This document shows positions 11,835-55,600 of a stretch of 64,000 nt of DNA, piece by piece. The notes under the pieces are model-generated. The model was given only the letters and a program-made list of their open reading frames with translations, was not told the origin of the DNA and made no database searches. The position numbers and the translations under genes are program-made. The stretch lies in NCBI GenBank assembly GCA_905178155.1, contig CAJINV010000018.1:1399776-1463775 (forward strand), written 5' to 3'. This DNA comes from Amoebophrya sp. A120 (taxonomy: Eukaryota; Protista; Dinoflagellata). The first letter of the stretch is position 1; each line of letters opens with the position of its first letter.

Positions 11835-12210
11835 TTGTAGGAGAAAACACGACCGGAGTGCTGCTTGGAGGGCTGAGAAACTTCCAAGTCGTATCCTCAG
11901 TAAAAACGTACCCACACCAGAGTTCCAATGCAGATTTGCAAAGACAGGAAGACTTGTAATGCGCATCCCCATGAGAGCCATTCCCAATCGTGTTTTGGAA
12001 TTTGTAATGCTGTAAACAGGATGAGCAGATGGATTTCTGACGCAGCTGGCCTTGCGAACCTGCACTACGCTACGGACTGCAGCTTGTGATGCGTGACTCA
12101 CAAAACTCCTAGGTTTGTGTTGCAAAATCCCCATCCTGACTCTGGTGTGGGTACGTTTTTACTCAGGATAAGTCGGCGGCTCCTCCTCGTCTTCGTCTTC
12201 TTATCGAAGT
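11835..12210 (+). pseudogene. Duplicated fragment of the second exon of the Rod/KNTC1 gene
   Basis: Once 11892-12170 is removed it matches ~19010-19105 (GGAGAAAACACGACCGGAGTGCTGCTTGGAGG...CAAGTCGGCGGCTCCTCCTCGTCTTCGTCTT); preceded by a family C right end and followed by a truncated family A left end at 12211. Confidence 0.8.
11892..12170. mobile_element. Introner/TIR element, family B
   Basis: TIR TATCCT(C/G)AGTAAAAACGTACCCACACCAGAGT; direct repeat AGTCG; paralogous empty site at 19063-19067. Confidence 0.95.
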
Positions 12211-21300: not shown

Positions 21301-24300
21301 CACTTATCCTGAGTAAAACCGTACCCACACCAGAGTTGTAATGCAGATTTGCAAAGACAGGAAGACTTGTAATGCGCATCCCCATGAGAGCCATTCCCAA
21401 TCGTGTTTTGGAATTTGTGATGCTGTGAACAGGATGAGGAGGTGGATTTGTTATGCGGCTTCCCTTGCTAAACTGCACTACAATACAGCCTGCAACCTGT
21501 CATGCGTGACTCCCAAAACTCCTCGGTTTGTGTTGCAAAATCTCCATCCTGACCGTTTTTACTCAGGATAACTACACTATACACGACTTCTAGTAGTACC
21601 TCCTCGAGGTCCGGCTTCCACTTTCGCGACAGCGTCCCAATTCGTGCGGAGCCAGTTCTGATTCGGGTGTTCGAGGCGGGGGAGGTCGTCGGGATTCAAT
21701 CCGCCGTGCTAGTGATCTGCTATCCGACGTGCGTCGAGGTCTACGACGCGAAGGCGCTGTTGTTGCTCTCCCGCTGGCAGACCAAGGAACGGATACGCGC
21801 CGCAAGCGTGGTGCCGGAACTAGGTACAGGATCGATTGGTTGTTTATTCATATAGGAATGCCGTTCTAAGTTCTTTCGACGCTTCTTCTTTTTGTAAGGT
21901 CGTACTGTGCACCTGCATCGCAAAGCAGAACAGGTGAAAAAATCCGAAAAGTACATCAAAACAGCCGCTATCACGATTTTGACGGACAAGATGGAGCTGC
22001 GTCGGATGACGAATGGCGAAGTTTTTTACACGTCCGCCGCTGAGGCGGAAGCAGGGCAGCGAGCAGAACTCCTGAATAAAGGAACTACTATGCAGGCGAA
22101 AAAATCTTCCCCAGTAAAGAGCGCGGCCAAGAACTTGGAAAACTTTCTCACGTGTTCCGGCCTCTTCGTAGCGACGGACGACTCGGTTTCGGTTCTGATC
22201 GAGCAACCGAAGGCGAGCGATTTGACTCTGCAGAACAGCCTGGAGAACGATTTTGAGAACAGTTTGCTGCAGCAGAACCTGTCCATTTCGCAACTGCGCC
22301 GGCAGATGGAGATCGCGATCGAGCGGTCCATTACCGGGGAGCTGCACCTGCAAGTGTCCCTGATCGTGAACCTGGCGAAAAAGATGTCCACGCAAATCCC
22401 GAGCTTTGTGGCGAACTCTGCGTTGAGGTGCGTCTTGCAGTCGATCAAGGAGACAAGGCAGCTGCTGACCGAGGTCGTCGCACTGTTGGAAAGCAGCAGC
22501 AACAGCACAAGCAAGGCCTACGACCTGAAGCGCGGGCTGCAGACGATAACCGAGGCGTTGGCGCGACTCGCAACCTTCGAGCAATTGGGGGAATTGCGCC
22601 AGATTCTGGACAGTTTGTCGATCGGAAAGACCGCGCAGCGCGCGAGCTTGTCCGGGAGCCGAGGGGGGAACAAGGGCGGCCTGTGCGTGGGCGCGGCGAA
22701 ACTGAAGGAACTGGGCATGATTTGGAACAAAAACGCGGATCGCTTAAGCTTCGGCAGCCGCCAGAAAATGCTGCAGAACCAAAACAACAACAATAGTAAC
22801 GGTGCTGCAACAGGGTCACTCTCACTAAACGATGGAAGTGCATCAACTAGCACCAACTGGAACCCGGCGATTTGGCAGCAATTTCGGCTGACCTCGCTGC
22901 CGCAGCTGTGTATCCAGCTCGCCCAAGCGGAGAGGATTTCCGACATGCTGACGATTTTCGCGCGGCACGGCACGAAGTTCACCCAACAAGAGGTGATGCA
23001 GTTGCTCGAGGCAATCCCCTTTTGCTCCCTCGCGGAGGACGAAGCGAGGCTGCCCGATTGGGTGGGGTCGCAAGTGTTACCCTTGTTGTCGCACGCGACC
23101 GAGAAGCACGACGCGCGCAGGCGACTGGTGAACTGGCTGACGAGCCGCGCGCTGGACCTGGAGCAGGCGAAGGGGTGCGACAAGGCGTTGCAGTTGCTGA
23201 AAGCGGTCCTGACCCCCCACAACCGCATGCTGTTTCCCGACGCTTTTGTCTGTCGCGCGAACTTGTGGGCCGGGGTGGCGTTGCACCACAAGCAGCAGGT
23301 CCGGGGGTGCAACAAGAACGAGGAGAAGCTGCGGCGGTTGTTTCAGGAATTATCCGAGATGATCGTTTTGCGCGATCTGCACTGCTTCCCCCTGCGGTTG
23401 AGGGATTTGCAACAACTCTCCCACACGGACATTGTCTCCAAATTCCTGCAGCGGGTTATCGAAAGGAAAAATCACCCCTCCCCATATCAAAACGAAATTT
23501 CTGAGGCTGGATTTGTGTACACAAATGCTGTCTTGCTGGAGAGCACTGCAGGCCCATACTAAGTGTGAGCAGCGAGGTTTTGAGCTAGGCACTTAGCATG
23601 AAAAACATCCGCACTGTAGGCCCAACGGCATGACAAACCGCCTGCACAATAGGCGGAGCCTGCGAGGTTGCCTTCTTGCAAGACAGACACGATTTGTGAC
23701 CACAGACCAGCGTCGCAAATTTCCAAAAAACCTTTGCAGTATGGGGAGGGGGGATTTTTCCTTACTATACGGATCGGCGCCGCGGCGTTGCTGAAGGACG
23801 AGATTCTGTTTCACGTCAAAAGCTACTGCGAGCGGCACGAGCTGGATTTGGACACGGTGCTGTTCGACTACGTAAGGACAAACCTCGTGACTTCTTCTGG
23901 CACTCCCGAGGGCGGCAGGTATCAGGACAATAACTTCCAGCTCGGGACGGGCTTCGGTGCAGCGAAGCAAAACACAGCAGCGGGATATCAAGTGCAAAAA
24001 TGGTCGGGTCTGGAAGAATTCATGTTTGTCATGCTTGTCTGGCATGACTCTTAAATCTGTCATGCACGTTACCCAAGAGATCCGTTTTTCTGTGATCCAG
24101 AAGCGCAGTTTGGCATGCAGAATATGCAACACCTAGGAGCTCAGAAACTTGTCATGCTAAGCCAGTATTTGTAGCATCATGATGAGACGCCACCCAGCGT
24201 CACAAGTTTCCAGACCCAGACGCTTTTGTTTTTGATACGGGAGCAAGTAGTGCAACATCAGGCAACAACCCTGCGGAGAACGGCCGGAAATTGGAGCGGG

Positions 24301-27300
24301 CGATCGAGTATCCCGTGCACAAGTATCGCATTCGTAGTGATCGCAATCATGCATGAGAAATCTTCTTCTAAGTACTCAATTTTTGTACCTGAATCAGCAT
24401 AAGAAATTTTCCTTTTGGAAATAAAGTTTGTAATGCATGTGCTACTAGTGCGATGTTTTTGCAATGCATATCGAGGTTCTAAAGTGCATCACCGACCCGA
24501 CGACGAAGGCCAAAGCGCTGCTTATCAAATGCAAAAATGTCTGGGTCTGGAAGAATGCAAGAGTTGTCATGCATATTTCTCATGACCCATGATGCCTGCA
24601 ATGCTTGACTTAGCATCGCAGACTTGTAGAGGGCTTCCTGATCATGTACCTTCCGCATGAGAAGTGCCCTGTCCGTGTAGCAAAAACTGTACCCCTCTTG
24701 CTGGTCATGCAATACAAATTTTTTTTGAGTCCAAAAACAGCATGACAAGTTGCAATCTTCCAGACCCAGACATTTTTAGAATCCATACTGCTGCACATCT
24801 TGCAACTGAGCAACACAAACTCGCAACTGCAGGAAGTGGTAAAAGACTGCAAGGAAAATCCAGACGTGCCGCAGGACCTGAAAGACGAGATTGACGGGCA
24901 GATTCGGCTGTTAGACGCCTACGACGTGCTGTCGAAGCACAATTTGTCCCAGAAAGTCATGATCAACCCGGTCTACGCGCAGCGGGTGTGCATGTACCTG
25001 CTGTCCAATATTCACAGCGGGACCTCTGCCGAATCCACCCTCGACGACGCGTTGGTGTTGCTGCGGGTTTTCCCGGGGGCGATTCTCTCCCCGCTGGACG
25101 CCCGAATCCTCCGTGCGACGAAGATCGTGTCGGCGGACCGCTATGAGAGTCAGGTTTTAGACCTGAAAAGCGTGCTTTCCTCGGCGGGCGAGCAGTGTTT
25201 GGAAGTGTGTGACGGGGTGGTGGAGTTTTGCTGTTCGTTTTTAAAAACGATTTACGACAACGAAAAAACGGAGGAACGGGTGTTGTCCTGGTTGCATTTT
25301 CGGAACAAGAAGAATCAAGAAAATCTGGAAAGCGAAAACGCGGACCAGTTTTTGGGAAAGTTAGGTGGAGGAGCAGCAAAGAACCAAAAGCAAAATGATC
25401 ATAATGCGCAGAAGAATAGTAATAAGCCCGATTCGCAGCAGTCGAACGAGCAGCTGATGAACCCAGATCCTTTGAAAGAGACGACGGGGGCGTATGCAGC
25501 TTTATCCCCGCAAAAGAAGCAGAGAGCGGACCAGCACTGCGACTTGGCTATCATCTCCATCCGGCACGTGTTCGCCATGAAAAATTGGCACGACGTGAAC
25601 TTTTACCACCGAAAGAGGAGACGATCCAGTGACAGCCGGAACTCTGGCGGGTTGTTCTCTGCGACCGCGCAAAGTCGGAAAAGAAGCACCAGCTTGGATA
25701 ACATCGTAAGCCAGCCAGGTGGTATCGCCGCGGGGGTGGTTCCGACAGCGCTGACCACCGGCGACCAGGCGATCAGTACGACCCAAATTTCTTCCTATCA
25801 GATCGACGAGGAGGAGGAGGAAGCGGCCTACGGGTCCGGTTGGTCCACCTTCGGCATGTTGGACGCACTGCAGCGGCTGTCGAAACTGCAGAAGCAGTTC
25901 AAACTGTACGGGATAGACCCGGTGTATGGATGTGTCAGAGTTGAAATCGACAAAGTTGAAATAATTTGTCATGCATATAAATGGATGCCAGTTGGAACCC
26001 AGTTTCCAAGTGGCGCAAGACAAATTTCGGTGGTCCCTGAAACCACTTTGTCGTGCTGTGTAGGCAAAGAAGGGCGACTTTCTCATGCTACTTTAGCAGC
26101 TCGAGCTGTAACCCCAAACAGGCTTACAATCGGCCTCACTTGCCTGCTCTGCAACACACGTGCCGCGGGTCATGCATTTTATGCATTACAAATGATTTCA
26201 ACTTTGTCGATTTCAAACCTGACGCTTCCATACGGTGCTGCTGCTCGGCAACCGGGCCGACCACGTTCTTTCCGCGCTGTTCGAGCGGCACGCCAGCTCT
26301 GAGGTACACGCCTTTCTCGACCAGGCGGAGCAGATACGAGAGTGCACAACTACCCCTTACCCTCAGTTGTATAGCGTGAGCAGCAAGACAAACACCAGCA
26401 ACAGCATACGTGGAGCCTATGCATGACAAATTTTGTGTGCCCAATGTAGAAGAAGTACTGTTTGGGCTTCGGAAGTTGTCATGCAAACCGTGCCACAGAG
26501 CAGCGACTGGATTTGGGATTTTGCATGACAAATGAGGGGGGAGGGGGAGTTGTGCACTGTCATAACAGGCCGCGGCGGCGAGAGCGGCCAGTTTCAGGAA
26601 AGAGCACGAGGAGGAGGAGGAGATGTTCGTTGGGATGAATAATTCATCTGGAGGTGCTTTTCGTGGTCAACAACATGACGGCCTTGCTGTACAACCGGCA
26701 GCAACCTCCACCAGCACAACGACCACCTCCGCGCTTTTCACACGCCTACTCCACCTCGCGGACCTGCTCGGGTTGGGCCGCACCTACGTCTGGCAGCTGA
26801 TCGTCCGGGAAGCGTCGTCGAAGGGACAGGTGGCGAGTTTGCGGTTGACGATGGACTTGGTGCCCAAAGACCACACGTTGCGAGAAACGAGCGGGGAGCT
26901 CCTCGACCTGGTTCGGTCCGTCGTGAGCCACTTCCGGGCGAATCTGGGCCGGAACCAGAAGAATTGCGCAGCATTGATCTTCCACTTGGCGCACCTGCTC
27001 GATTTGCTGACCTATTGCTTGGACTGGTGCGGGGCGCGCCCGGAATCTTCCATGATGCAGCAGCAACACCACCAGCTAATGGGAGCGAATTACAACAACA
27101 GCAATGGGTTTATGTTGGGCAACAATGCCCTCACACCAGCTCCCACCAATCCCAACGCGGCGATCGAGGCTCAGAATCTCCTCCCGCTCGTCACTTACGC
27201 GGGGGATCTCCACTTTGCCGTGAACTTGCTCCTGTCCAGCGACTTGCTGGACACGGATGCGCACGTGCGGAAAACGGCGCCGCGGAAGCACTTGTCCGTC

Positions 27301-30300
27301 GTGCACGCGCACATCATCGAGAATCTGCACGAGAACGACCCGTACGAGCAGTTGTTCTCGAACCAATTCAAGGAAGTCGCGAGTCTGCTCCCCGGTCCGG
27401 CGGCACTGAAACTGGTGTTGGAATTTCTGACCGAGCCCCAGTACTTGGAATCGCCCGGAGTGCTGGAACACGGCGGAAGCGGTCTGCGGGGCGGCAACGG
27501 AACAAACGGTTTTTTCATGCCGGTTCGCACGGCTCCGTATCGACTGTCGAACACGCCCACGAGGTTGTCGGCTGGCCGGTCCCACCCCTACAGACGGATT
27601 TCCAACGGAACTACGGGGAGAAATTTGATAGGTATGAACACTGGTGCCACCTCCAGAATGAACTCCATGCCCGCAAGGTTCAATACAGGTGCGGGAGGAC
27701 AAGATAGCCAACATGGGACGACGAGTGCAAATCATGCAACTACTGCAAGCAACCACGGAATAAACAACACTAAGCTTTCCCTCCCGGCGCACCACCCACA
27801 CCACAACCTCTTCTCTCCGCACACGACGCCGCAGAAAAATCGGTCGACTTCGTTGAAGGAAATTTACGACATGCTACGGACCAGCCGGTGCTTGGACTGG
27901 GCGAAACAGGCCATCGCGAGGGGCTTGTGGGACAACAGCATCGACGTTTTATCAAATGCAAAAATGTCTGGGTCTGGATCTGGAAGAATGCATGTTTGTC
28001 ATGCTTGTCTGGTATGACTCGTAAATCTGTCATGCACGTTACCCAAGAGCTCCGTTTTTCTGTGATGCAGGAACGCAGTTTGTAATGCAGAATAGGCAAC
28101 ACCTAGAAGCTCAGCCTCAGAGACTTGTGATGCTGAGCCAGCATTTTTGGCCTCATCATGAGACGCCACCCAGCATCACAAGTTTCCAGACCCAGACATT
28201 TTTATATTTGATACGCTTCCCCCCGAAACAACTGCAGCTCAAACAGCCACCTGTACCAGGAGCTCTGCCAGGAATCCGCACTTTCCCTGATTTTCGGCAC
28301 CTCCCGCGGCTCCACCCTCGACGCGTTGCTGTTCCTCGGGTACATGGGGTGTTTGTCCCACGAAGTGTGCCGAGACGTGTACCAGCAGGCCATCACCCAG
28401 ATCGAGCAGGAGGGCGCCAGCTTGAAAATGCAGGAGCTGTGTACCTTGGGGCGGGTGCTTGGCTTCCTGCTGAAGAAAGACGACCTGAAGATCCGGATGG
28501 AGAAGTCGGAAACCACCTGGAAGTGGTCAACCCGGTTGAAAGGGTTCGATCTGCCCTTCGATCTGCTGCAAAACACGAAAGAGGACCAGCGGCTCACGAA
28601 CGATTTGTTGCCGGAAATCATCCAGAAATCCCAGTTTTCTTTGCCGATCGTTTTGGAATTCGCGTCGGATTTCAAGCTGAACAAACCGGAGGTGTTGGCG
28701 CTGTGGGTGAAGTTGATGCTCCTGCGGCCGACCGCGCCGGCAAAAAACCGGTGCTGGATCTTGCAGGTGTCGAGTGAGGGCCAGGAAGTGTTTAAGCAGG
28801 TGTTTGACCAGAGCTACCAGCACAAAATCCCCCCGCATTTACCCTTTCTGGACGATCCCACGCTGGTGTTGCAGACGGTTCTGTCGGGCATTTCTCCCTA
28901 CGACTACGAGCGGATCCGCTTCGTGTTGCGCTTCCTCTGCGAAAAGTCGGCGAACAAAGGAGCGGGCGGCCGCGGGGGAGACACTGGCACAACTGCTGGT
29001 GGCAAGTTAGACAGCAGCCGGCTTGGCCCGGGATTGGAGGATCTGAATCATATGATTGATGGGGATGAGGGAGTAGAACATCAAATGCGAGGGAACATGA
29101 ACCAGCGAGGAGCTACAACTGGCGGCGACTTGACAGAAATGCTCGCCAGGGCATCCACCAGCGCGGCGCGAAACCCCCCCGGGTCGGCAGCTTCGCGAGG
29201 TTTAGGTAGTGGGATGAAGAAGCAACCACGAGAATTTTTAAACCACCAGCAGGAAGAAGAAGATAATCTGGTGTTGCAGGATCACCCTGGCCGTGACGGT
29301 ACCATACGGCAACCAGGCGGTACGGGCACCCCCGTGTCCTCTCGAAACAACAACAACAAGTCCGGCCAGCAAGTGCCCAGCTCGCAGAAGAAGTTCCAGC
29401 AAACAAACCACTCCGGGTCCAAACCGAATTCCGCCGCTCGGCCAAGTTCCCCGCACCCTTTCCCCCGCGCGTTGCAGCAAACCACGATCAAACGAGAAGC
29501 GTCGGCGCTGGAGCGGGTTTTGGAGGTTTTGCAGCGGTACCACCGGTTCTCGCCGCCTTCCGACCGGGAAAAAAAGGAGATCACGAAGTGGCGCAAAGAG
29601 AAGGGTTTGTCCGTCGAGGTCGAACACATTGTGCTCCAACTCGCGGAGTCTCGTCTTCCCTGGCACTACTTGCTGCAGAACGAGACGAGATGGACCTTTC
29701 TCCGGCCGGAGCTCGCCGCGCGAAGTGAGGACGGGGTGAAGCGATTGCTGCCCATCACCTGCTACCTCCCCGGGATATCGCCCGACGACGTGCATTTGGA
29801 ATATTTGAAGCACCTGTTGACCACAAGTTGCGTGTCCTCCTCTTCAAAATCGCTTGGGCTCGCGGCGTCGTCAGGCGCGGCAGGAGGAGCATCTAGTACA
29901 ACTTCCGCATCGAGTAGCTCCTCGAGCGGGACATCAACTTCCTCGTCGAAGAATAAAATCGCGGAGCATCTCCGCCTGATTCAGGATAAAGACAAGGCAG
30001 AGCGCGCCGCGGCAGAGATCCAGAAGCAACTGAAACTGTCCCCCGAGCTCTGCGAAGTAGCGGCTTTCCGGGCGGAGCGCGCGTCCCAGGCGGTGCTGGC
30101 GCAAATCCAGGATTTGGACAAAAATCCGGACCGCGATCCAAAAAGACGGCAGAAACTGCGCCAGTTGCAGGAGGAGAAAGCGAAACTGGTCAAGAACTCG
30201 CTAATCTTGAAGTCCCGCCTGGATTTGCGGGATTGGGGCTGGGAAATGTTCGAAAACGTCTTGATCCGGTGCGGCGCGGTCACTTTTATGACCTGTGTGT

Positions 30301-33300
30301 ACTACTATTTGGCGCCCCGGACCGCGAAGATTCCTTTGTCTGAGTTCCACAATCGGGTGGACATCATTCTCCGACGGCACGGCTCCGACCCGAAGAAAGA
30401 AAAGATCGCGCTGATGCGCACCTTATGCTCTGCAAAAGTATCGTACCCGTACTTCTAATTGCAATCATGCATGACAAATCCCCCTCCCCGGGGGGGATAT
30501 AAATTCGGACGCACTGACAAAAATAGAGGCGGAACGCAGTGAGGAGAGTTGCCTCGCTGTCGTTACCGACCCAAGAAAGATCCGTATCGTAAACGTGCGC
30601 ACACTGTGCAACAGATCCGATAGATTTTTTTTTTTCCGGCTGTCCCCCACATATTAGAAGATTGTCGTCAAAGATTAGTGATCTGATTGTGTTACTCCAT
30701 AGACGCCTTCGCGATATTTTTTTAGCGGACCCCGCACGATATCCCTGATGCGTTTCCCGCATAGTATTGAACGTCTTTGACTCAAACACATAGACACCCC
30801 TCGCTACGGCACACCTCATCTGCCTAGTCGCCCCTAGGTAGGTGCAGGAATTTTCTGTGTGGGCTTTTTGTGCTTAATTATTCCAACAGGGGCTGAGTCT
30901 TTTTTTTCTGCCTTGCCAGCAGAGTTGTATGGATGGGGGGGAATTGACGGAAGTGGCGCGAGACCTTGGTGACGAAGCAGACGACAAGCGCGGGAATGGT
31001 ACAAATCAAAAAAAAGAGATGGCATAAACGTGCTCTGCTTAACTGTGTGAAAGGTGTCGGCCCTGTGTAACCTGCTGCGGCAGGCAGGTGAATTCGTAGA
31101 ACTGCATCACATGTTAGGCAACATCCACCGGCCTCCTAGCTAAGTGATGAATTTATATGCGCACATCCGAATCCGAATCCGTAAACAGAGCGGGGCCCAA
31201 TGAAAAAAAAAATCATGCATGACAAATCTTGTTTCTTAGCCAAATTAGCATTACAAACTCCATTGATTTTTCCCCTCTGAAAAAACTTGTATTGCGATTT
31301 ATACTAGAACGATGCTTTTGCAATGCATACACGTGGCTGACATCCGGGTCCTGGACGCCGACCGAGTTGGTGAAAAACGACCCGGCCGGGCAAGTGGAAA
31401 TTGCGGAGTTGGAAAAAATCTTCTCTAGCAGCTCCGGCAGATTTTCAGCAGGCGGCGTGAGTGGGGACAATCTGCAGCTGCAGCCGAGTGGTAGTAAGAA
31501 GGACCACCAGCACGGAGCGCTTGGCGGAGCATCGTCCACCTCTGAGGCAGAGATCATGTTAACAGATGTGAAGCAAGCCATCACTGGTAACTCCGCCGCT
31601 TCGTCCTCAACCGGGGCAGCTTCGGGTGGCAACGGTAACAGCAATAGTGCGACAGGAGTTCCGTTCGCGGCCCTAACCGAGCTGTGGTGCCAATCGCCGA
31701 ACGAGAGACAGATGATCGCGAGGATTGCGTTAGTCGCAGCGCCGGGCGTGACGAAACAAAAATTGAGTGCGAAACCAAGTGACGACATGGTGGGCTCCGT
31801 GTTTGGAGATGATCACATCAAGGATGTTGACGGAATAAATGAGCACAGTCAAAGCAGGACGACACAGCACCAGCATGGGGATGATAGTAATACGAAAGGA
31901 GCCAACTCTACTTCTTTGAAGCGCCATCGGAACATTTCTCCCGAGCGAGCAGATCAGGGTGGAGACAACAACAAGTCCTCTGGGGGTCATGTGTCCTCCT
32001 CCTCCGCCACGGAACAAACTACCGTGCAAGAAAACCTCCAGCAGGACAGAAATAAGAAGAAACTGAAAAGACAAAACACGACCAGTTCCGCCGACAATGA
32101 AAATGGTGAAAATAACAATCACAATCCCTCTGCCGACGAAACTTCCACAGCGCTCCGGTCGGTGATCCGCCTGTACCTTCACTGGCTTTTACGGGACTCC
32201 CTCACCACCAACGCGTGCTGCCGCTGTTTCTGCGTGTTGCTGCAGGTCGCGACGGTGCAGGAGATTCTCACCGTCTACCACCACCCACCCGAGGAGCTGT
32301 GGGACTATTTCCGGACTTTCCTCTACTTGAACGCGTTAGAGAAGCTCCGCGTGGTATTACAATGAAAAATGCCCCGACCCCCGAGCTTCGGAGCATTTGT
32401 ATTCCGCAAACCTTTCCAAAAGAAACATTCGCCCTCTTGCATCTATCAGCATCACAGATTTCCCATCGTGAATAGCAAGAATTTGTATTGCAGAAGATCC
32501 CAGCAAGAGCGGCCCTGTCATGCAAGCGATGCGATATACAGCTAGACCCTGCATCAGAAAGATTCATATTCCTTTCATGCATGACAAAAAGACTTCATTT
32601 GGAAACTTCGCATCACATATTTTTGCAACTTTGGGGGTGGGGGCATAATTTTTCACTGTAATACGTGGGGCACATCGACCTAACCACTTTCCGCGACACA
32701 GACAAGGAGGGGTTGGCGCGGAGCTACTGGCGGCAGCAGCACAAGGATCCGCTGTTGGTTGCGGTGATTACAGGCTTGGTGCTGGATTTTCAAGTGTATG
32801 ATCCGAAGTTTCTCTCGCAGATTTTGCTGAGATTGCTCCAATTGCAAATGTCCACGTTTTATCAAGTGCAAATATGTCTGGGTCTGGAAAGAATGGAATT
32901 TGTGATGCTAACTCTCGATGATACAAAAACCTGTATTGCATGAGCAGCAAACGGCACTCAGATTTTTGCTATTCTGAGAAGGCATTTCTCATGCGGTATA
33001 GGCATGAGAAAGCCTTCACAAAGCCTGTAATGCCAAAGCATGCATCACCGACATCGCAGGCCATGTGAAATTTGCATGACAAACTCGTCCCCCAATCTTC
33101 CAGACCCAGGCATACTTTCAGTTGATACGTTCCTCCAAGACGCGCTGCTCCACATGCACAACTCTGGGTTTCTGTTGGAAATGCCGCTAGATAACGAGCT
33201 GGGGACGGCGTTTCAAAAGATCTTGCTGGATCACTCGTGTCAACTCGTGCAGCAAGGGTTAAACAAGATCGACTTGGACCAACTCAACCACGCCATCGAC

Positions 33301-42481: not shown

Positions 42482-43697
42482 GGGGTGAAGATGTGGTGCT
42501 AGTCGTGGACTAGGATCGACGCTGGGCTTCGGCGTGGTTGTCTTTCCAAAAAATTTCAAATGTACCCTTATGCAAGTATGAAACCATCTTAACCTTAAGC
42601 AAATACAAATTAAAGGCAAATTTCATTGCCACCGAAGTTCTTGTAGAACTTGTTCTCATCTCTTGTCACTTTACTTTTCAGAAAAATCAAACAGACACTG
42701 CAATTATCGCTCGATGCTTGCAGGACAACTAAGACAAAACTAAGACATTTAAGCGTATGTGCATCCATATTGATGCATGAATGTTGCAGAAGCGTATGTG
42801 AATATTAATAGGACTTGTGTAACTAAGAATACAGAAAATCAGCAGAAGCGTATGTGAATATTGACGACTCTTAGCGAAATACTTTCAGATCGATTTGTTA
42901 CGTTCACTCTTACTTGATTTTTGCGCGCAGAGAGGTAGAGGAACTGCTTTAGCAGCGAGCGACCGCGACCCCCGCGGTGAAGGACGACAGATTATGTGGA
43001 GTTTCTGTTGCATCGTGCCAAGTGGGCCATAGCGAATCGGTTGTTGAAGATGCTCAGGTCGTTTATCTGGACGACTGTTGCTGATCCGCTGTGGCTGCGA
43101 AGCGCGTGTCAGCTTGAAATTTGACCTCTGCACAGTTTTGTACAGTAAAAATGTCGCAAGTTGTTTGGCCCAATGTTGATCGAACACGAACACGAAGAAG
43201 GCACTTAAACGAATCCGCCAGCCACGCGAGCCGGAGTTCTTGCAGCTGCAAGTCGACAACTACCGCTTATGATGTAGCGCGGCTGGCTATTTGTATTTCA
43301 GTACCCGGTCGTGTAGTCCACGTCATCTTCGTCTTTCGTAATACACTCTCGTTGGGTCTGTCATTGGTCGCCGTCGTTCCAGTTGTAGGCAAAGTTGTGT
43401 GGTTGGTCGTCTTTTATTTGGATGGAGGACGAGAGCTACCGCATCTCGTTGAGTGTCAGCAAAGTAGCATGTTACAGACTTCGTCGCTGAGAGGTAGAGC
43501 AGTGGCACAGCGCGCACAGAAGGAGCTTTAGGTTCGAACAGTCGTGGAGGTCGTAAATTCATGTAAAAGTCGTGATCGAACTCGAAAAACTAAAACATGT
43601 AAACGTCTTGTATATTGACTCAAAATCAGAGGCGAGCGTGAACTTGTTTAATATCTGGCAATGAAGTAGACAATGACAAAAATCAACAAATGAACAA

Positions 43698-46600: not shown

Positions 46601-49600
46601 CGCCCAACATGGTGGAGCTCCCCCTGGTGTAGACGGCACCGCTGAAAACAAACCTCCCTCGAAGACGAGTTCAGAAATTGTTTCCTCCGTTCTTCAGAAG
46701 TTCGCCGAACTGGTGTCTGTCCGTGTGAACGACGAAGTAGACGACAGCCTGGTCCCGGAGTTCTTCAAAGACACACTGCAGATGATCCACACCCACAATT
46801 TCAGAGCGTGGCTCGGCGTTTGCATCCTGTTTGTCTACACACTAGTCGCGATTTTGCTGCTGGAAGTGTACCAGCGGGGCAAGGCCATGAAGCACCAAGA
46901 GTCTCCGGAAAATGTGACCATGGACCGCTTCGCGATCCGAATGACCGTATGCATGGCAAATATGTCTGGGTCTGGAACAATGCAGTTTGTGATGCTACCT
47001 CTGGACTCTACATAAAAATCTGTATTGCGCGAACAGCAAAAGAAGCGCAGTTTGTGCTACGCGGAGAGGGCATTTCTCATGCGGCATGAGCATCAGAAAG
47101 CCCCCGCAGAATCTCTGATGCTAGGGCATTCATCACAGACCTCACGGGTCACGCAAAATCTGCATGACAAACTCCTGCATTCTCCCAGACCCAGACATGT
47201 TTGCATTTGATAGACCGGATTTACGCCGGAAATCACGGACCCGAGTGAGATCCAGAAGTGGCTGTATGACCTGCTCAGATGTTACAATCTCAAACGTTGC
47301 AATAGAATCTGGAATTTTCCTCGCATGACGAACATGACAGACTCGCAGAGCGTTCCACTTTCTGCAATACAAATTTCGGCAGATGATTCTAGCGCGGTTT
47401 GGGACTCGAGAACTTGTCATGCGCAATCCTGTGGGAGTAGGCTAGATCATGCACTCTTGCATGACAGATTTCCATATTCTATTGTAAAACGTTTGAGATA
47501 GTAACGTTTGAGCGGTTCATAGGCTGCAAGAGGATATTTTGGAGTTTGAAGACCACTACGAGCACTTCCGCCACGAAGAAGCAGACAATCTCATGAACAG
47601 CCGAGCCACGGTGGCGAGCGCGCTGTCGACCGCTTCGAAGCAAAGCAAGGATCCCCACAACGACCACCGGACCAAAATTCTGTACTGTTCTATCGCGTAC
47701 GATTTTTTCGCGGCCGATTCACACGTCTTGTACGGGTCGGATTACACCAAGACGCTGCTGGACCGCTTTGTGCTGATCAAAGACAGCGAATACGGCAGCT
47801 TCCCGCTGTCCGAGGCCTACGGGAAAAAGGGAAAGCCGCCGCGGTTCGATCAGAACGGGGACTACATCCCGGACGAAGACAGCGCCGACGACACGCCCTG
47901 GTGGCAACCGACCGGCATGTACTCGCGCATTACCGCACCTCTATTGCGCCGGGACAGCAAACATAAAACGCAACTGAACCGGGGACAACGGAGAAGAGGA
48001 CCGGAGGGCGAAGGAACTCATGGCTCGCCTCCCCATCTTCACCCGGACATGGTGATCGATAGAAAAGACCAAACGCGAGCGAGTACTATCGACGACGAGA
48101 GGCAGACCCAGACCACCGGTGCTGCCAGGATGAACAACAGTAGTTTGGGGACTTTCGCGAGTGAGGCCAGCTACGGATCGATCACCGCGAAAATTGAGAT
48201 AAACGACCGACAGGGAATATCCTGGGTAAAAAAGTCTCGACACCAGAGTCAAGATGGGAAGTCTGCTAGACAAATCAGCCAGCTTTGGCTGTTTCGCATG
48301 ACAAGTTTATTCTCCTCGTAGTGTGATCCTGTTTAGGTAGTTCAGAAGCATCACAGACCTAGCGCATCATGCTGATTCTAGCATCGCAAATTTCACGACA
48401 CGACTAGAAACGCTTCCCATGGGGCTTCGCATGAGAAACATTTGAGCATGCAGATTTGCATGACAGCTCTGGGGTGGGGACGTTTTTGCTCAGGATAGGG
48501 AACGACCGCAGCCAGTGGTAAGCGCAGACCGCTACGAGGAACAAACTTGTTTACCAGTACGTACTATCAAGTGCAAATATGTCTGGGTCTGGAAGATCTG
48601 TCATGCTACTCCGGCATGACCCTGCACTCTGTATTGCGTGGCCACAAACAGCTTCTCTCGCCTTTCATGCAAAGCCGCAGTTTCTCATGCGAAATACGCA
48701 GCACAGAAGCGCGAAAAAACTTGTCGTGCTTGGCTGCGCATTACAGTCCACTTATTGTTCACTGACTTGCATGACAAGTTTCGGTTTCCAGACCCAGACA
48801 TATTTGCAATGCATACGTACGAGACGGAGGACTCCGAGGTTCCGCCCGAGCAACTGATTTATCTCTTCGCCGATGAGAACGAACGCCACAACCCGCGCCA
48901 CCCCGAGGTCTTCCAGGCGCGCGAGTTTGTGAAAAAGCTGGAAAATTCGGGCACGGTGTTCGTGGTTTGCCACAGTGAAAAGGACCGGTGGAAACTGGTG
49001 CAGGCCATGATGCGGCACAGCCTGAAATCTTCGACGGAGAAGGGCAAGAAAGCTTCAGGAGAACAAGTAGAAACCGGCGGGGGCCATCCTTCTGGCCAGA
49101 TGATCCCGCTCCGCTGGAACCGCTACGTCGGCGGCAAACTCGTGCAAAAGCTAAAAATCCGGGCCCATCCTGGGACGAACGCGGACTTGCCGCCGGTTGT
49201 GGGCTGGTTTGCCTACGGCGCCACGTGGAGAGGGTTCATGGAGTCGTTCTTCGTCTGGGTTTATGCATTGCAAATGAAATATGTCTGGGTCGGGATCTGG
49301 AAGGATGCAAGGTTTGTCATGCCTGTCTGGCATGATTGAAGAGTTTGTAATGCGTGTCTAAGAAGAGAGCCTTTTGCTTGTCATGCAAGAAACGCAGTCT
49401 GTCATGCGGAAAGCGCAACACGAAGCTGCGCAAATATTTCTCATGCTTGGCTGTGCATTACAGAGCACTCACTATTCACAGCTGAGCATTACAAGTTTCC
49501 AGACCCAGACATAAGTACTTATTTGCATTCGATACCGTTGCGATTTTAACGGCGTCGATTCTCGTGTACGTGTATGGCGTATTCATGCCCTACATCCACT

Positions 49601-52600
49601 ACGTCACCGGGTACATCAAGGTAAGTACTATGAGCTCTTTGACAATACCAAAAATACAGAGCATTTATTTCGTTTGCTTGAGAAGAGCTGATACTGAAGG
49701 CAGCAGTTCTGCTTCTGCTCCTGCTGCTGGAGTGTACTGAAAGGTTGTTTTCTGTTGACCCAAGGATGAATACACAGTGTACAATTGAGAGTCACATCGT
49801 GCCAGAAAAATCTTTGAAGATTTGAATTGACAAAAATTGCAAAAAATCCTCAGGGCATCGGCGCGGAGCCGGGCATTTTTGAGGCGGGTATTTCCCTGCA
49901 GACGCTGTCCACCTTCCCGGGGTACATCATGTCGGTGGCTTACTATGCATTGCAAATATGTTGTCTGGGTCTGGAAAGATGTAACTTGTCATGCTGCATT
50001 TGCATACTACAAAAATTTGTATTCCATGGACAGCAAAACAAGGGTCCAGCTTTTGCCACGGCGAGAGGGCATTTCTCATGCGGTATAGGCATCAGGAAGC
50101 CCTCGCAAAATCTGTGATGCTAGGGCGTGCATCACTGACATCACGAGTCATGCAAAATGTGCCTGACAAACCTTGCATCCTTCGAGACCCAGACACATTT
50201 ACACTCGATACTTACGGGGGCATGTTGATCCTGGTCCAGGCCATGTCCACGATTATTTCCCGCATGATGCGGTTCACGCGAGAAGGGAAACGGATCGAGT
50301 TCGAGATTTTTTTCAACGTTTTTGCGCTGGTTTTCACGGTGTTGCTCCAGTACTACTTTACGCTACCCGTTTCCGTTGTCGGCACGGAACTGACACCCAC
50401 ACCCTTATCAAGTACAAATATGTCTGGGTCTGGAAATTTGTGATGCTAAATTGCGCACGATGAAAACACTTCCTCATGCAGGAAAGCATGACAAGTCTGC
50501 ACAGCGCTTTGTCATACGAACTCCGCATCAGAAATTGCGTTTTTGTATAACCACGCGCGAGGCTGCCACTTTTGTTGGTCATGCAACACAGATTTCACAG
50601 GAATGCAAGACCAGCATTACAAGTTCCAACTTTCCAGACCCAGACATATTTGCATTTGATAACCCTGGCTGGTCGACCACATGGCCCCGTTGAGCTTTCT
50701 GCACGAGTGGTGGCAGATATGAGAGTGCACAGCTCCCCCTCCCCCTCATTTGTATGGCATGAGCAGCAATACAAACGCTAGCGCGCATGAAGTCTATGCA
50801 TGACAAATCTACTTATGGTTCTAATGTAGTGCTGTTTGCTGGGCTTCCGGACTTTGTCATGCAAACAGTGCCAGCACAAGGCAGCGACTGGATTCGGCAA
50901 CTTGCATGACAAATGAGGGGGGGTGGAATTATGCACTGTCATAGCAGAGTTACGACATGGAAATGGTCCGGTTGATCTACGAAATCACCTTCTCCCAGTT
51001 CGTGGTTCTCGCCGTGATTCCTGTCGGCTCCTACGACTGCGTTTTCTACCTCGGCTATCCTGAGTAAAAACGTACCCACACCAGAGTCAGGATGGGGATT
51101 TTGCAACACAAACCTAGGAGTTTTGTGAGTCACGCATGACAAGTTGCGTTCTGCAGTGTAGTGCAGGTTAGCAAGTGCAGCCGCATCACAGATTCATCTG
51201 CTCATCCTGTTCACAGCATCACAAATTCCAAAACACGACTGGAGATGGCTCTCATAGGGATGCGCATTACAAGTCTTCCTGTCTTTGCAAATCTGCATTA
51301 CAACTCTGGTGTGGGGACGTTTTTACTCAGGATATCGGCAGGTTCGTGACCCGCCTGTTCAGCACGAAAACCTGGTCGGTCCGCGACGTGGAGGCGTTCT
51401 TCGACTATGACCGTGCACAACTCCCCCTCCCGCTCATTTGGCATGCAGAAGCCCAAAGCCAGTCGCTTCCTTGTGGCACTGTTTGCATGACAAATTTTGG
51501 AAGCCCGAACAGTACTGCACTAGACACACAAATTTGTCATTCATAGACTCCACGCGTGGTGGTATTTGTATTGCTGTTCATGCTATACAAATGAGGAGGA
51601 GGGGGAGTAATGCACTGTTATATCGAGCCGACCGAGTGCAGCATCCCGCAGGACTACGCACAGAACACGTTCTTCCTCGTTTGTGTCTTTCTCCAGCTGT
51701 TTATGGCGGGCGCGAACTCGTACACGGTACTGATCTTTATCGCGATGTATGCTTTGTGGGAGCTCGTTTCCCAGCGCTACTGCTATCTGCGGATGGCGAT
51801 GCCCTTGCCCATCGCTTCCTCCAGTGTGGACTCCGCGGCGCAGTTTAATCTCGGCGTCTGGGTGTCCATCATCTTAGGCGCAGTGCTCGGGCGGTGGGCC
51901 CAGAAGCTGCGGCGGAACGGCCGGTCCCGGTTGTATCCTGTGCAAAAGTATCGTACTCGTAGCAATCGCAGTCATGCATTACGAATTTCTCTCTCAAGTC
52001 AAATCCGCATTACAAATCGCATTTCTCACCACGCCGAGGAAACTTGTCATGCGATTACTTATACATTATATTAATGCGAAAAAAGAGGTAGACAGAGGGT
52101 CCCAGAGAGGTGGCCGAGAGGTAAAAAAGAGGTCGACAGAGGTAGAAAAGAGGTCGACAGAGGTGGAGAGGTGGCGCGGGACCCCGTTCGAGAGGGTCCG
52201 CGAGAGGGCGCGCGAATAAGGCCCGCAGTAAGGGCCCACCCTTAGGCGCCGCCTAAGTGGCACAGAGGGTGCAGAGAGGTCAAAAAGAGGGGGCGCGAGA
52301 GGTCGACAGAGGTGGCGAGAGGTGGCGCGAATAGGGGGCGACCTCTCGCGGACCCTCTTGGCCACCTCTCGGCCACCTCTGTCGACCTCTACCCGCGAGT
52401 ATAGCCGGACTATTAGCGGGGACCCCCAAAAGAGGTCAAAAAGAGGGTCTGCGAGAGGTCTGCGAGAGGGTAAAACACAAAGAAGCGGGCGCGAATCCGC
52501 ATGGCACTGCCCATATTTGGCACTGCAGGCCATTCCTTCGCGGAGCTGTTTTGTTCGGCGCCTTTCCGCGCCATCCTCTCGCGCACCCTCTCGCGCCACC

Positions 52601-55600
52601 CTCTTGCGCCACCCTCTCGCGCACCCTCTCGCGCCACCCTCTCGCGCTACCCTCTCCCGCCGGGCGGCTTCTGTTCGCCCCCGGTGTTCTTTGCAGCTGC
52701 TCCCTGCGCAGAGCGCCCACAGGCGCGGGAAGCGCGCAAGTGGTCCTGCGGGTTGGCGAGGCGCAATATGTTTCGTTGTGCATAGGCCCGCGGGGTTGTG
52801 GTCCGATCGGCAAACAGTCTTGCCCCGGCCCAACAGCCTTGCGCTCCGGCGGCAGCCGGAGCATGGCTAGTTATATACTAGTGCGATGCTTTTGCATTTC
52901 ATAGGTTGTGCTACGACGCCAAAATTGATACCGAGCACGGGAGCAGGGACAACAGCTACTGCAACGACGCGGGAAACGCGTTCTGGGACCAGGTGTGGCT
53001 GTATGTTGCCGGGTCGGCTCTGTGCGTGGCGTTGTTTGTGTTCTCGTGGACTTATTTGCAGCAAAAAATTCTCCGCAACTGGGGTCAACGGAAGTTGGTG
53101 GAAAAAATCTCGGCCGAGATTATGGAGGAGCAACTCGACATTGATTCTGGGGAAGATGAAACGATAACTACGAACAACAAGAACACCTTTATTTCTCGTC
53201 GGCAGACGGCGAGTACTAGAAATAAAGCTTCTTCATCTCCCAGCAACGTAACGGTGTTGAAACTTCAAAAGAACCTCACGGCAATATCCTGTGTAAAAAC
53301 GTCCCCACCCCATAGTCAAGATGGGGATCTCGCAACACAAATCGAAAAGTTTTGGGAGTCAAGCATGACAAGTTCGTCTCCGTATCGTAGTGCAGTTTAG
53401 CAAGTACAGCCGCAACACAAATACATCTACTCATCCTGTTTACAGTATTACAAAGTCCAAAACGCCATTGGAAATGACTCTCATGGAGATACGCATATAC
53501 AAATCTTCCTGTAACTGCAAATCTGCATGACAAGTATGGGGTGGGGACGTTTTTACTTGGGATAGGCGAAAAAAAGTAGTAAAGAAAATACGGTTAGCAC
53601 ACCATTCCCATTGCCGTCGCCGGGCCGAGCTAGTGCGGAGGGCGAGGCGGGTCCATTTTTCGGAATGGTGGAAAGTGGCTACGACCCACGAGAGTCGGAA
53701 AACAACGAGGTGGAAGATGTGCAAGAGATCAATGAACAGCGAGCTGCAGGGGACGACCCCTCGGCCTCCAGTGCAGGTAGCAGGATCATAAGAGACAAGA
53801 ATGTCACTAAGCCTCACACTCGGCATTCCTGGATTCCAGAGTACTTGCTCGACGGCGATGAAACAGATGTTGAAGTGATCGACGACAACGATGAAGCGAC
53901 CGATTTTGAGAACAACAGCGACGGGGGGAGAAACGAAGATTCGAAACAGACCAATCGGAAAATGATAAACAGCAAGAAACGCCCGATAATCGGCACAGCA
54001 GAAGGATCCTCATCCTCTCCTTCACGGGTGGACCAAAGCGCTAGCAATGCCATCACTTCCACGCTTGCCAAGGTGAAAAACTTCACCCATACCACCATTT
54101 TTGCGGGACGAGGGCCCAACAAAAATCTTCCGCACGGAAAGAGACATCGCGCTACGCACAACGATGTTGAGCGACACGTGTCCTACAACTACCTGAACGC
54201 CAATCCGGGACACTGCTTGAAAGCCTGGTTTGGCTTGCTGGAGGAGGAATTGCAATTTTGCGACAACCGGAACACGGAGTTTTACAAGTCCCACATTTCC
54301 TTCAAGCGCTACAGTGACGTTCCCTGTTACTTCCAGCGCGGCAAGGAGTACCTGTTTGACCAGTACCATCAACGGGGGTACATGCAGTCGCGCAAGTACC
54401 ACATCGGTCAGGAGCACGAGGATTTCTGTCCGTGTTACCCCTGCAGGCGGAAGGAAGACATGATAACCACGGGGCGAGAGGCGGTGGCCATCGGGGGGTA
54501 TTTCAACGATCAGCGGGTGGTCGTGGGGAATGTGGTCGAAGCCGGAGAAGACAACGAAAACGATCTCGCGAGGAGAAACAACATCGTCGATAATGCGGGA
54601 TTGCTGGGAGCGCAGACGTATGACGAGGCAATCGACGACTTGGAGCGAATGAGTATTTCCTCCGGAGGGGGCGAAAACAGTGACGCTATGGATTTGAAAC
54701 TTGCCGAATTGAACGAGAAGCGCACGACTTCGCGGTTGTCGTCTCTGGCGAAGGCTGGTGGAAGTGGTTCCCCGCCGAGCGGCGGGGCGCTTGTGGACTG
54801 GTTCACAAAGACCCTTGGAGCTGCCGGTTTATCTTCTGCAAGCTCAAGTAGACCACCGCCCAAAGGGAGGCAGGGGAGAGGGACGCGACTATTTGCGACG
54901 CGTGGAACTGAGGCGCCAGCCGCGCCAGCAGGTGGAGGTGCAACGACGGGAGGTAACACTGACAGGAGCAATGACGAGGACCCGCCGAATACTTCTTCTA
55001 GTAGTGCTGCTGCTAAAGCAAAAGCGAAAGCTCCCTCTCTTGCTGCCGGGAAGGAAAAAGTTCTTGACGGCGCTACTTCGGATTCCGCAGCGAAGTTGTC
55101 TGCACAGGCCAGAGCAGCGGACTTTTATCGAGCTGCTTCATCTCAGCAACGGAAAGAAAAGGGAGGGGAAATAAAGGTAAAGAAAACTTCATCACCAGCA
55201 GCGGCAAACCAAAAAGAGAAACTTCTGACGAAGAATAAAGTCGTGCCAGGTGTTGAAGCTGATGCAGCGCTCGCAAGAGCCGACGAAGAGGAGCAAGATC
55301 CTGACCAAGTATCAAATGTAAAAATGTCTGGGTCTGGAAACTTGTGATGCTGGGTGGCGTCTCATGATGAGGCGACAAATGCTGGCTCAGCATCACAAGT
55401 TTCTGCGCGTCCCGGTGTTGCCTATTCTGCATGACAAACTGCGTTTCTGCATCACAGAAAAATGGAGCTCTTGGGTAACGTGCATGACAAATTTAAGAGT
55501 CATGCCAGACAAGCATGACAAACATGCATTCTCCCAGACCCAGACATTTTCACATTTGATACCAAGGCAGTAGCGGTGATCGTCTGCACCAGACTCCGCA

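What the first reader, a model, noticed from the sequence alone, without database searches (positions are those of the whole stretch)
21305..55561. The same element is tolerated in both orientations in sense-strand CDS: structure-based splicing or DNA-level excision
Seen: family B at 21305 vs 51056, family A at 23986/27950 vs 55310, and family F at 50718 vs 51406 are reverse complements of each other, yet all lie in + strand genes and restore the frame identically. Known: spliceosomal signals (donor, branch point, acceptor) are strand-polar. Inference: removal relies on symmetric features (TAT...ATA ends, TIR stem, direct repeat). This fits either structure-guided RNA cleavage and ligation, or programmed DNA excision analogous to ciliate IESs, which leave one direct-repeat copy. 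The DNA alternative is speculative.
Basis: partly seen in the sequence, partly recalled or inferred. Interest (0 to 1): 0.82.

Follow-up and report, generated by a model that had tools for sequence, protein, structure and literature searches.

The report
Two-way introns cut by fixed ruler
These are the already described transposon-derived introns of the marine parasite Amoebophrya A120: copies sit either way round in genes, stay in the DNA-type data, and are missing from transcript-type data with cuts one base before and four bases after their mirror-image ends, most likely made by an altered spliceosome rather than by cutting DNA.

Summary
Observation confirmed. The window is Amoebophrya sp. 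A120 and the elements are its published introner elements (Farhat 2021). All three cited pairs are reverse complements inside + strand genes. Transcript-type contigs drop both orientations: 14 of 14 junctions seen remove element + 5 nt, and ordinary GT-AG introns are gone from the same contigs; a DNA-type run keeps them. Among 122 family-A copies in another assembly both orientations are common (58:64; stricter calls lean about 1:2). Not found in the text I read: the cut is fixed 1 nt before TAT and 4 nt after ATA, follows the direction of transcription in both orientations, and ignores longer direct repeats (an 8-bp duplication leaves one extra codon). This argues against ciliate-type DNA excision and against repeat-guided removal. 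The machine is untested: altered spliceosome about 0.5, separate cut-and-ligate enzyme about 0.4.

The parts
18361..34590 (+). Host gene A, KNTC1/ROD kinetochore protein orthologue, 17 elements and 3 GT-AG introns
   Evidence: Pfam PF24520/PF24515; model equals deposited P0001 over the 3338 aa compared; end coordinate read from the sequence
43677..56825 (+). Host gene B (open frame from 43677), 13 elements and 1 GT-AG intron
   Evidence: 2925-codon frame after removal; spliced length 6460 nt equals contig X3 record 10; deposited P0003
21305..21570 (.). Family B element, orientation 1; perfect 8-bp duplication; junction fixes the cut at -1/+4 (removed 21304-21574)
   Evidence: joint 21303/21575, no ambiguity, in X3, X5, X6
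51056..51334 (.). Family B element, opposite orientation, 5-bp duplication
   Evidence: removal by length accounting only; deposited model has 3 extra aa here
53285..53564 (.). Family B element, opposite orientation to 21305; imperfect duplication allows only offsets -1 or 0
   Evidence: X6 pieces join 53283/53569
19136..19437 (.). Family B relative, opposite orientation to 21305; 8-bp duplication with one mismatch; offsets -2 or -1
48218..48497 (.). Family B relative
   Evidence: piece end 48211
23986..24237 (.). Family A element, orientation 2
   Evidence: joint 23980/24238
27950..28213 (.). Family A element, orientation 2; imperfect duplication, offsets -2..0
   Evidence: joint 27947/28217
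55310..55561 (.). Family A element, orientation 1
   Evidence: pieces join 55303/55561 in X3 and X6
20664..20925 (.). Family A element, orientation 1
   Evidence: joint 20658/20926
20983..21244 (.). Family A element, orientation 2, 57 nt from an oppositely oriented copy
   Evidence: joint 20976/21244
24523..24787 (.). Family A element, orientation 1
   Evidence: joint 24517/24788
18573..18838 (.). Family A element, orientation 2
19483..19787 (.). Family A relative, orientation 2
32860..33127 (.). Family A element, orientation 2
46948..47212 (.). Family A element, orientation 2
48565..48815 (.). Family A element, orientation 2
49262..49534 (.). Family A element, orientation 2, imperfect duplication (3 of 5)
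49944..50210 (.). Family A element, orientation 2
50406..50661 (.). Family A element, orientation 1
50718..50943 (.). Family F element, orientation 1
   Evidence: removal by length accounting and P0003
51406..51622 (.). Family F element, opposite orientation; mismatch at base 5 of the duplication
   Evidence: prediction (Glu, not Asp) written, met by P0003
26335..26564 (.). Family F element, orientation 1, starts TAC; offsets -4..-1
   Evidence: joint 26330/26566
23457..23769 (.). Element of another family; offsets -1 or 0
   Evidence: joint 23455/23774
24309..24470 (.). Short-family element
   Evidence: joint 24302/24470
25925..26232 (.). Element of another family
   Evidence: joint 25919/26233
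30424..31329 (.). Short-family element enlarged by inner sequence (906 nt)
   Evidence: model equals P0001
32355..32663 (.). Element of another family
34157..34461 (.). Same family and orientation as 32355
47265..47521 (.). Element of another family
51934..52903 (.). Short-family element with a nested repeat (970 nt)
   Evidence: X6 piece starts at 52904
59091..59239 (.). Short-family element, duplication 3 of 5; offsets -2..0
   Evidence: X6 pieces join 59088/59243
60741..60894 (.). Element in a downstream gene with a weak DOT1 hit
   Evidence: pieces join 60735/60895 in X3, X6
21824..21964 (+). Canonical GT-AG intron removed in the same contigs as the elements
   Evidence: joint 21821/21963
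49621..49853 (+). Canonical GT-AG intron, present in the DNA-type contig, absent by length from transcript-type contigs
11892..12170 (.). Family B element in a stray copy of gene A exon sequence: filled site; the gene itself (near 19063) has the 5-mer once
10815..11081 (.). Family A element outside a recognised gene
306..455 (.). Short-family element; host gene not worked out
560..838 (.). Family B relative; host gene not worked out

Best explanation
These are non-autonomous inverted-repeat elements of Amoebophrya A120 that sit in exons in either orientation and are missing from transcript-type contigs with cuts 1 nt before the opening TAT and 4 nt after the closing ATA, most likely made on the pre-mRNA by an altered U2-type spliceosome. 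Step 1 (inferred): a transposase-like enzyme inserts a copy with a 5-bp target duplication, blind to gene direction. Step 2 (shown): both ends read the same either way round, TAT-[CG]-N6-A-tract in front and its mirror behind, so the transcript always shows N-UAU at its start and U-tract...AUA-NNNN at its end. Step 3 (shown): the piece removed is N-TAT...ATA-NNNN, which takes out exactly 5 duplicated bases and restores the mRNA; the distance is measured from the element ends, not found by matching the repeat, so an 8-bp duplication leaves one extra codon. Step 4 (inferred, about 0.95): removal happens on RNA. Step 5 (inferred, about 0.5): the catalyst is the spliceosome, which has kept U and A at intron positions +2 and +3 but no longer needs the first G or the last AG, with the terminal stem or proteins on the two end motifs holding the ends together in place of U1.
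For: 14 of 14 element junctions seen in X3/X5/X6 remove element + 5 nt and the only offset common to all is -1. It is fixed by 21305 alone and again by 26335 with 23457 or 53285. Family B gives -1 in one orientation (21305) and -1/0 (53285) or -2/-1 (19136, deposited protein) in the other; the mirror offset -4 is excluded. A prediction written beforehand was met: P0003 reads FFEPTE at the 51406 junction. GT-AG introns are removed in the same contigs. DNA-type run X1: 8 listed unique contigs at depth 19-33 run into element ends at 14 boundaries, 5 of them with 31 or more letters on both sides, and one holds the GT-AG intron. By end motif alone 287 of 308 elements have a 5-bp duplication with at most one mismatch, 3 have 8 bp, none of the rest 6 or 9. 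For the spliceosome: +2 U and +3 A match the 4 of 4 GT-AG introns of the two genes (GTA); all 9 predominant A120 non-canonical motifs and all 9 A25 motifs in Farhat Table S4 have T at +2; 83 of 89 spliceosomal proteins and U2, U4, U5, U6 are reported in A120, U1 not found, while strain Kv has U1 and canonical introns; Fritillaria splices TIR-derived non-canonical introns with its spliceosome (review passage).
Against: Nothing here tests the catalyst. 0 of 32 window introns are GT-AG under this register; only 7 of 206 perfect duplications would give GT-AG, G at +1 is no commoner than its mirror (69 vs 69) and terminal AG is only weakly up (23 vs mirror 13). No branch point was identified, and the predicted terminal stem (z -2.2 and -6.1) would bury the U-tract. 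No G-U over A-C excess in the arms (148 vs 159, p 0.57), so stem pairing on RNA is not shown. X3, X5, X6 are only guessed to be RNA, come from 2 samples of 1 study, are contigs without strand, and the two raw-read RNA runs gave 8 and 0 reads. The deposited proteins are annotations, not independent data, and P0003 has 3 extra residues at the 51056 junction. Table S4 motifs may reflect aligner preference for GT, CT and AT starts. All informative junctions are in + strand genes of this one window.
Confidence: 0.55

Rival explanations
1. A separate, non-spliceosomal machine cuts the pre-mRNA at set distances (1 and 4 nt) from the terminal stem and ligates the exons, as proposed for euglenid nonconventional introns.
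For: No sequence need at +1, -1 or -2; long terminal stem predicted in both orientations; Euglena introns use the same kind of ruler, 3 nt before and 5-6 nt after a pairing motif, shown by knock-in and leave as circles (review passage); U1 not found in A120.
Against: Invariant U at +2 and A at +3 as in the canonical introns; no wobble asymmetry, and position 4 of the arms is often a non-pairing mismatch (82 of 237), which suits motif reading more than pairing; the cuts lie outside the predicted duplex, unlike RNase III (own knowledge); no candidate enzyme was looked for, since no genome was held.
Confidence: 0.38
2. Programmed DNA excision, like ciliate IESs, removes the elements from the genome of the transcribing stage.
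For: TIRs, a direct repeat and orientation blindness are what a DNA transposase leaves; one filled/empty pair exists in the window DNA (11892 vs about 19063); the stage of the DNA-type run is unknown and contigs drop rare variants.
Against: The junction is 4+1 in the direction of transcription for both orientations of family B, which a two-fold symmetric DNA cut would not give; GT-AG introns are lost from the same contigs; elements are kept in the window, in X1 and in a second assembly; the empty site is a separate copy of the sequence, not the same locus. Only 15 of 1708 joint rows were shown; none was an exact skip in X1.
Confidence: 0.03
3. The elements self-splice as ribozymes.
For: They fold stably and share a mirrored inner motif (268 and 263 copies in 249 elements against 1 and 0 in 18.8 kb of exon).
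Against: An element and its reverse complement are both removed; interiors differ between families and tolerate 700-nt nested inserts; no Rfam match in the window.
Confidence: 0.02
4. Removal is guided by the direct repeat (template switching during library making, or homology-guided joining), so the junctions are artefacts or repeat-defined.
For: Most junctions lie in a perfect 5-bp repeat next to a hairpin, a setting prone to reverse-transcriptase skipping (own knowledge).
Against: 21305 ignores a perfect 8-bp repeat and joins at a point with no shared base, in three runs; 59091 joins with 3 of 5 matching; 19 of 32 elements would shift the frame and 12 of the other 13 hold stops in all three frames if kept.
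Confidence: 0.02

Closest known systems
Amoebophrya A120 introner elements (Farhat et al. 2021, PMC7789003; read: abstract, sections 10, 11, 12, 16, passages, supplement legends and Table S4; figures not seen)
   Same: Same organism. Ends TAT + 7 nt + at least three A, inverted repeats, 3-5 nt direct repeats, mean length 240 nt, RNA-supported, hairpin model.
   Different: The text I read has no statement on element orientation ('strand' 0 hits, 'orientation' only for gene blocks) and calls the border position variable or unknown (Fig. S23 legend gives 1-5 nt). The -1/+4 register, its tie to transcription direction, independence from the repeat and the 8-bp cases were not found there; Figs 3, 4 and S19-S25, which I could not see, may bear on this.
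Polarella glacialis and Aureococcus introners (Roy et al., bioRxiv 10.1101/2020.10.14.339549; passages read)
   Same: TIR and TSD elements that create introns in either orientation, with some bias.
   Different: They need G-started donors and AG acceptors taken from the element or TSD; the A120 elements show no such need.
Euglenid nonconventional introns (Nomura et al. 2025, PMC12501133: abstract, section 8, passages; review PMC11282704 section 6)
   Same: No GT-AG, pairing ends, direct repeats, fixed spacers from the pairing motif, short at the 5' side and longer at the 3' side; machinery unknown.
   Different: Motif CAG/CTG with spacers 3 and 5-6 and a purine after the junction, against TAT/ATA with 1 and 4; unrelated lineage; circles shown there, untested here.
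Fritillaria borealis non-canonical introns (Henriet 2019; known to me only through review PMC11282704)
   Same: MITE-derived, TIR and TSD, non-canonical ends, attributed to a changed spliceosome.
   Different: Preferred AG-AC/AG-AT ends and a preferred TAC target; here the terminal bases are nearly free.
Ciliate internal eliminated sequences (recalled, no call)
   Same: Transposon-derived, exon-interrupting, precisely removed, orientation-blind.
   Different: Removed from DNA with germline/soma separation and a symmetric cut; here the DNA-type data keep them and the junction follows transcription.

Membership tests
Amoebophrya A120 introner elements | Genome of strain A120 | tested here: met
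   Two exons are 100% identical to proteins named Amoebophrya sp. A120
Amoebophrya A120 introner elements | Inverted repeats starting TAT + 7 nt + at least three A | tested here: met
   Profile of 249 elements: T, A, T at 100, 100, 99%, A 90-96% at element positions 11-13 (the first two bases were fixed by the detector); paper text
Amoebophrya A120 introner elements | Direct repeats of 3-5 nt at the borders | tested here: met
   287 of 308 elements found by end motif alone have a 5-bp repeat with at most one mismatch
Amoebophrya A120 introner elements | Repeated genome-wide and absent from transcripts | tested here: met
   X1 depth 19-40 in unique bins, thousands to 228,000 in element bins; 14 junctions; RNA nature of X3/X5/X6 inferred
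Canonical U2 spliceosomal intron | GT(GC)-AG termini | tested here: not met
   0 of 32
Spliceosomal intron (any type) | Lariat intermediate and snRNP dependence | not testable with these tools
   No informative raw RNA reads (8 and 0 laid)
U12-type intron | RTATCCTT donor, U12 branch site, U11/U12/U6atac | tested here: not met
   Under the register family B starts N-TATCCT, like the U12 donor (motif recalled), but across 249 elements +6 is C in 30% and +7 is T in 18%; minor snRNAs reported absent
Euglenid nonconventional intron | N3-CDG ... CH'G-N5-6 then purine | tested here: not met
   Ends are N-TAT ... ATA-N4; works alike, not a member
Ciliate-type IES | Empty junction in somatic DNA | tested here: inconclusive
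   One DNA-type run keeps the elements; stage unknown, rare variants not visible
Ciliate-type IES | Junction symmetric, independent of transcription | tested here: not met
   4+1 junction in transcript direction for both orientations of family B
MITE (non-autonomous TIR transposon) | TIR, constant TSD, filled/empty pair, no coding capacity | tested here: met
MITE (non-autonomous TIR transposon) | Cognate transposase with the same ends | not tested
   No whole genome held; Farhat reports none in A120; Gozashti 2025 reports TIR-flanked A120 introners with integrase-like frames (passages)

The most novel reading that the evidence does not exclude
A120 removes most of its introns with a dedicated non-spliceosomal machine that measures one and four bases from a mirror-symmetric terminal stem, needs no particular base at either splice site, and so makes any insertion with a 5 (or 8) bp duplication harmless in either orientation: a second, independent origin of the Euglena-type ruler and a licence for unlimited transposon invasion of exons.
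Probability: 0.35. Interest if true: 0.85.

Novelty: already known. Interest (0 to 1): 0.45.

Why it matters
How about 65% of A120 introns are removed without GT-AG and without a detectable U1 is an open question since 2021. The elements are known, but the border was left undefined because the direct repeats blur it. Pinning it at -1/+4, showing that it follows transcription and not the element or the repeat, removes the DNA-excision idea, tells where to look for a branch or a circle junction, and gives a one-line rule that reproduced two deposited proteins (one without a difference, one apart from 3 residues). It also explains why the invasion is tolerated: the ruler cancels exactly a 5-bp duplication.

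Tried and rejected
No whole genome was held, so no genome-wide count in A120 and no search for a transposase, nuclease, ligase or U1. No RNA holder was listed on record; raw RNA runs X9 and X10 laid 8 and 0 reads, no test. The joint table was swamped by paralogous copies (15 of 1708 rows shown). G-U versus A-C test for RNA-level pairing: null overall (148 vs 159); one subset leaned the wrong way (26 vs 44, p 0.04). Splice-site enrichment in the duplications: none for G at +1, weak for terminal AG. Orientation bias: none at the loosest strand call (58:64, p 0.65), but of 12 stricter cuts tried all leaned the same way and three reached p below 0.05 (5:19, 20:40, 20:36), while short loci leaned the other way (25:16); adjacent copies were 20 alike and 11 opposite; a mild bias is not excluded. 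Rows dropped: of 310 elements, 218 passed the strand-call filter and 122 of these are family A; the strand caller was right in 94 of 98 confident cross-validation calls. U12-type reading of the N-TATCCT start: rejected. Rfam scan of the window: 0 matches. Protein search found nothing because its length window stopped at 2905 aa. Earlier scan notes: none for this genome. Literature searches for a prior statement on orientation or register in A120; none found; subscription papers (Huff 2016, Henriet 2019, Roy 2023, Guminska 2021) were not readable.

Full report
Observation. The window holds 36 complete elements of 149-970 nt that begin TAT (one TAC) and end ATA, with inverted arms of about 25-30 nt and a 5-bp direct repeat on either side. 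Thirty of the elements lie in two long + strand genes. Removing each with 5 more bases, plus a few GT-AG introns, gives frames of 2925 and at least 3389 codons. Gene A is a KNTC1/ROD orthologue. Kept in place, 19 of 32 elements would shift the frame and 12 of the other 13 have stops in all three frames.

What it is. Exons of both genes are 100% identical to proteins named Amoebophrya sp. A120. Farhat et al. 2021 (PMC7789003; abstract, sections 10-12 and 16, passages, supplement legends and Table S4 read; figures not seen) describe in A120 29,850 introner elements with inverted repeats that start with TAT, seven looser bases and at least three A, flanked by 3-5 nt direct repeats. The profile of 249 elements here fits. 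So the elements are known.

RNA or DNA. Contigs of runs X3, X5 and X6 skip the elements. On 20560-28500 all 11 listed joints occur in all three runs: 10 elements and one GT-AG intron. On 45500-61500 four more junctions are seen as adjoining pieces, and one 6460-nt contig has exactly the length and piece ends predicted when 13 elements and one GT-AG intron are removed. Both orientations are among the junctions seen directly: family A 20664, 24523, 55310 against 20983, 23986, 27950; family B 21305 against 53285. These runs are only guessed to be RNA, from 2 samples of 1 study; loss of GT-AG introns and gene-specific depth say they behave as mRNA. Run X1 behaves as genomic DNA: depth 19-40 in unique bins, thousands to 228,000 in element bins; its 8 listed unique contigs run into element ends at 14 boundaries (5 with 31 or more letters on both sides) and one holds the GT-AG intron. 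X1 may be the source of the assembly, its stage is unknown, contigs hide rare variants, and only 15 of 1708 joint rows were shown. The raw-read RNA runs gave 8 and 0 reads: no test.

Where the cut falls. Perfect repeats blur the junction, imperfect ones do not. All 14 junctions remove element + 5 nt, and the only offset that fits all is 1 nt before TAT and 4 nt after ATA. Element 21305 fixes it alone: it has a perfect 8-bp repeat, yet only 5 extra bases go and the join shares no base. Elements 26335 (-4 to -1) and 23457 or 53285 (-1, 0) fix it a second time. The rule reproduces deposited P0001 with 0 differences over the 3338 residues compared, including a second 8-bp case at 19136. I wrote down beforehand that the 51406 junction should read Glu, not Asp; P0003 reads Glu. 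Against: P0003 has three extra residues at 51056, which the contig lengths do not support and which I take for an annotation slip; deposited proteins are not independent of the same kind of RNA data. Found by end motif alone, 287 of 308 elements have a 5-bp repeat with at most one mismatch, 8 have two mismatches, 3 have 8 bp, 1 has 7 or 4 bp and 9 have none. All nine predominant A120 non-canonical motifs in Table S4 start N-T, as the rule predicts, though aligner preference may contribute.

The key argument. The element is symmetric but the junction is lopsided, four bases from the upstream copy and one from the downstream copy. In family B this holds in both orientations; the mirrored offset (-4) is excluded at 53285 and 19136. 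So the polarity comes from the transcript, not from the element, which fits RNA processing and not a two-fold symmetric DNA cut. All informative junctions are in + strand genes of one window, so the test should be repeated on - strand genes.

Orientation count. A pattern scan of the metagenome collection gave 156 stretches, 153 loci, the 80 listed ones all from one assembly with elements up to 95% identical to the window's. They hold 310 distinct elements, none in shuffled copies. With host strand called from the flanks (94 of 98 right in cross-validation), 218 passed. With the window's 31, family A splits 62:74, family B 8:11, two other families 7:10 and 7:5, with no inconsistent orientation link. 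Loci alone give 58:64; stricter calls lean one way, up to about 1:2 or more in small subsets (5:19, 20:40, 20:36), and the window has 4:10. Both orientations are common; a mild bias is possible.

Mechanism. Insertion by a transposase-like enzyme with a 5-bp duplication is inferred from the repeats and one filled/empty pair. The transcript always begins the intron with N-UAU-[CG]-N6-A-tract and ends it with the mirror plus four free bases. For an altered spliceosome: U and A at +2 and +3 as in the 4 of 4 canonical introns of the two genes, T at +2 in all 18 motifs of Table S4, a nearly complete spliceosome without detectable U1 while strain Kv has U1 and canonical introns (PMC12005148, passages), and the Fritillaria precedent (review PMC11282704, section 6). 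For a separate machine: no base need at +1, -2 or -1, a predicted terminal stem in both orientations, and the Euglena ruler of 3 and 5-6 nt shown by knock-in (PMC12501133, abstract and section 8). My test for RNA pairing was null (G-U 148, A-C 159). I put the spliceosome at about 0.5 and a separate nuclease-ligase route at about 0.4; DNA excision, self-splicing and artefact at 0.02-0.03 each.

Novelty. The elements and the hairpin idea are published. Two-way introners are published for other species. I did not find a statement of orientation independence, of the -1/+4 register, or of independence from the repeat for A120 in searches or in the papers read (also PMC12130899, PMC9860276, PMC10228655, PMC8469720, PMC12621601, PMC11453091: passages only); Farhat's Figs 3, 4 and S19-S25 and several subscription papers were not visible and may bear on it. 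Verdict: real, already known in kind and in instance, with a sharper rule that makes the open question of the catalyst testable. Interest 0.45.

Noticed in passing
window 11834-12210 vs 19010-19105: A stray copy of about 100 nt of gene A exon (97% and 91% alike) carries a family B element with a 5-bp duplication where the gene has the 5-mer once; it lies among truncated elements (11621-11836, 12211-12253) in an apparently non-genic patchwork.
   Followed up: partly
window 51056-51334: Deposited protein P0003 repeats three residues (GRF) at this junction; a 7-nt look-alike inside the element could have been taken for a mini-exon. Contig lengths fit the model without it.
   Followed up: partly
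window 30424-31329 and 51934-52903: Two short-family elements swollen to 906 and 970 nt by inner sequence are still removed by the same rule; the second insert is itself repeated in the genome.
   Followed up: partly
all elements: An inner motif CAT[GCT]ACAA and its reverse complement occur about once each per element in mirror arrangement (268 and 263 in 249 elements; 1 and 0 in 18.8 kb of exon), so symmetry goes beyond the terminal repeats; perhaps binding sites of the mobiliser.
   Followed up: partly
L067 3329-3608; L140 74-328: A third 8-bp duplication (L067) and one element with a 7- or 4-bp repeat in a CTT run (L140), which the ruler would not restore in frame; 9 of 308 had no repeat.
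   Followed up: no
window 1779-3347, 8495-10033, 13089-14840: Three paralogous single-frame genes of 512-583 codons, 88-99% alike, two with a 24-nt repeat array; no element was detected in them; sub-threshold DUF7796 hit.
   Followed up: no
window 16737-17122: 33-nt tandem array, followed by a palindrome at 17264-17393.
   Followed up: no
window 63263-63878: AT-rich stretch with nested inverted arms, unlike the introner families; a self-comparison at E 1e-5 showed no long arm.
   Followed up: partly
window 60321-61500: Gene with a sub-threshold DOT1 methyltransferase hit; its contig depth is about ten times that of gene B in X3.
   Followed up: no
L001-L153: The 80 listed of 156 metagenome hits all come from one public assembly whose elements are up to 95% identical to those of the window, so a close relative or the same lineage occurs in a metagenome collection.
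   Followed up: partly
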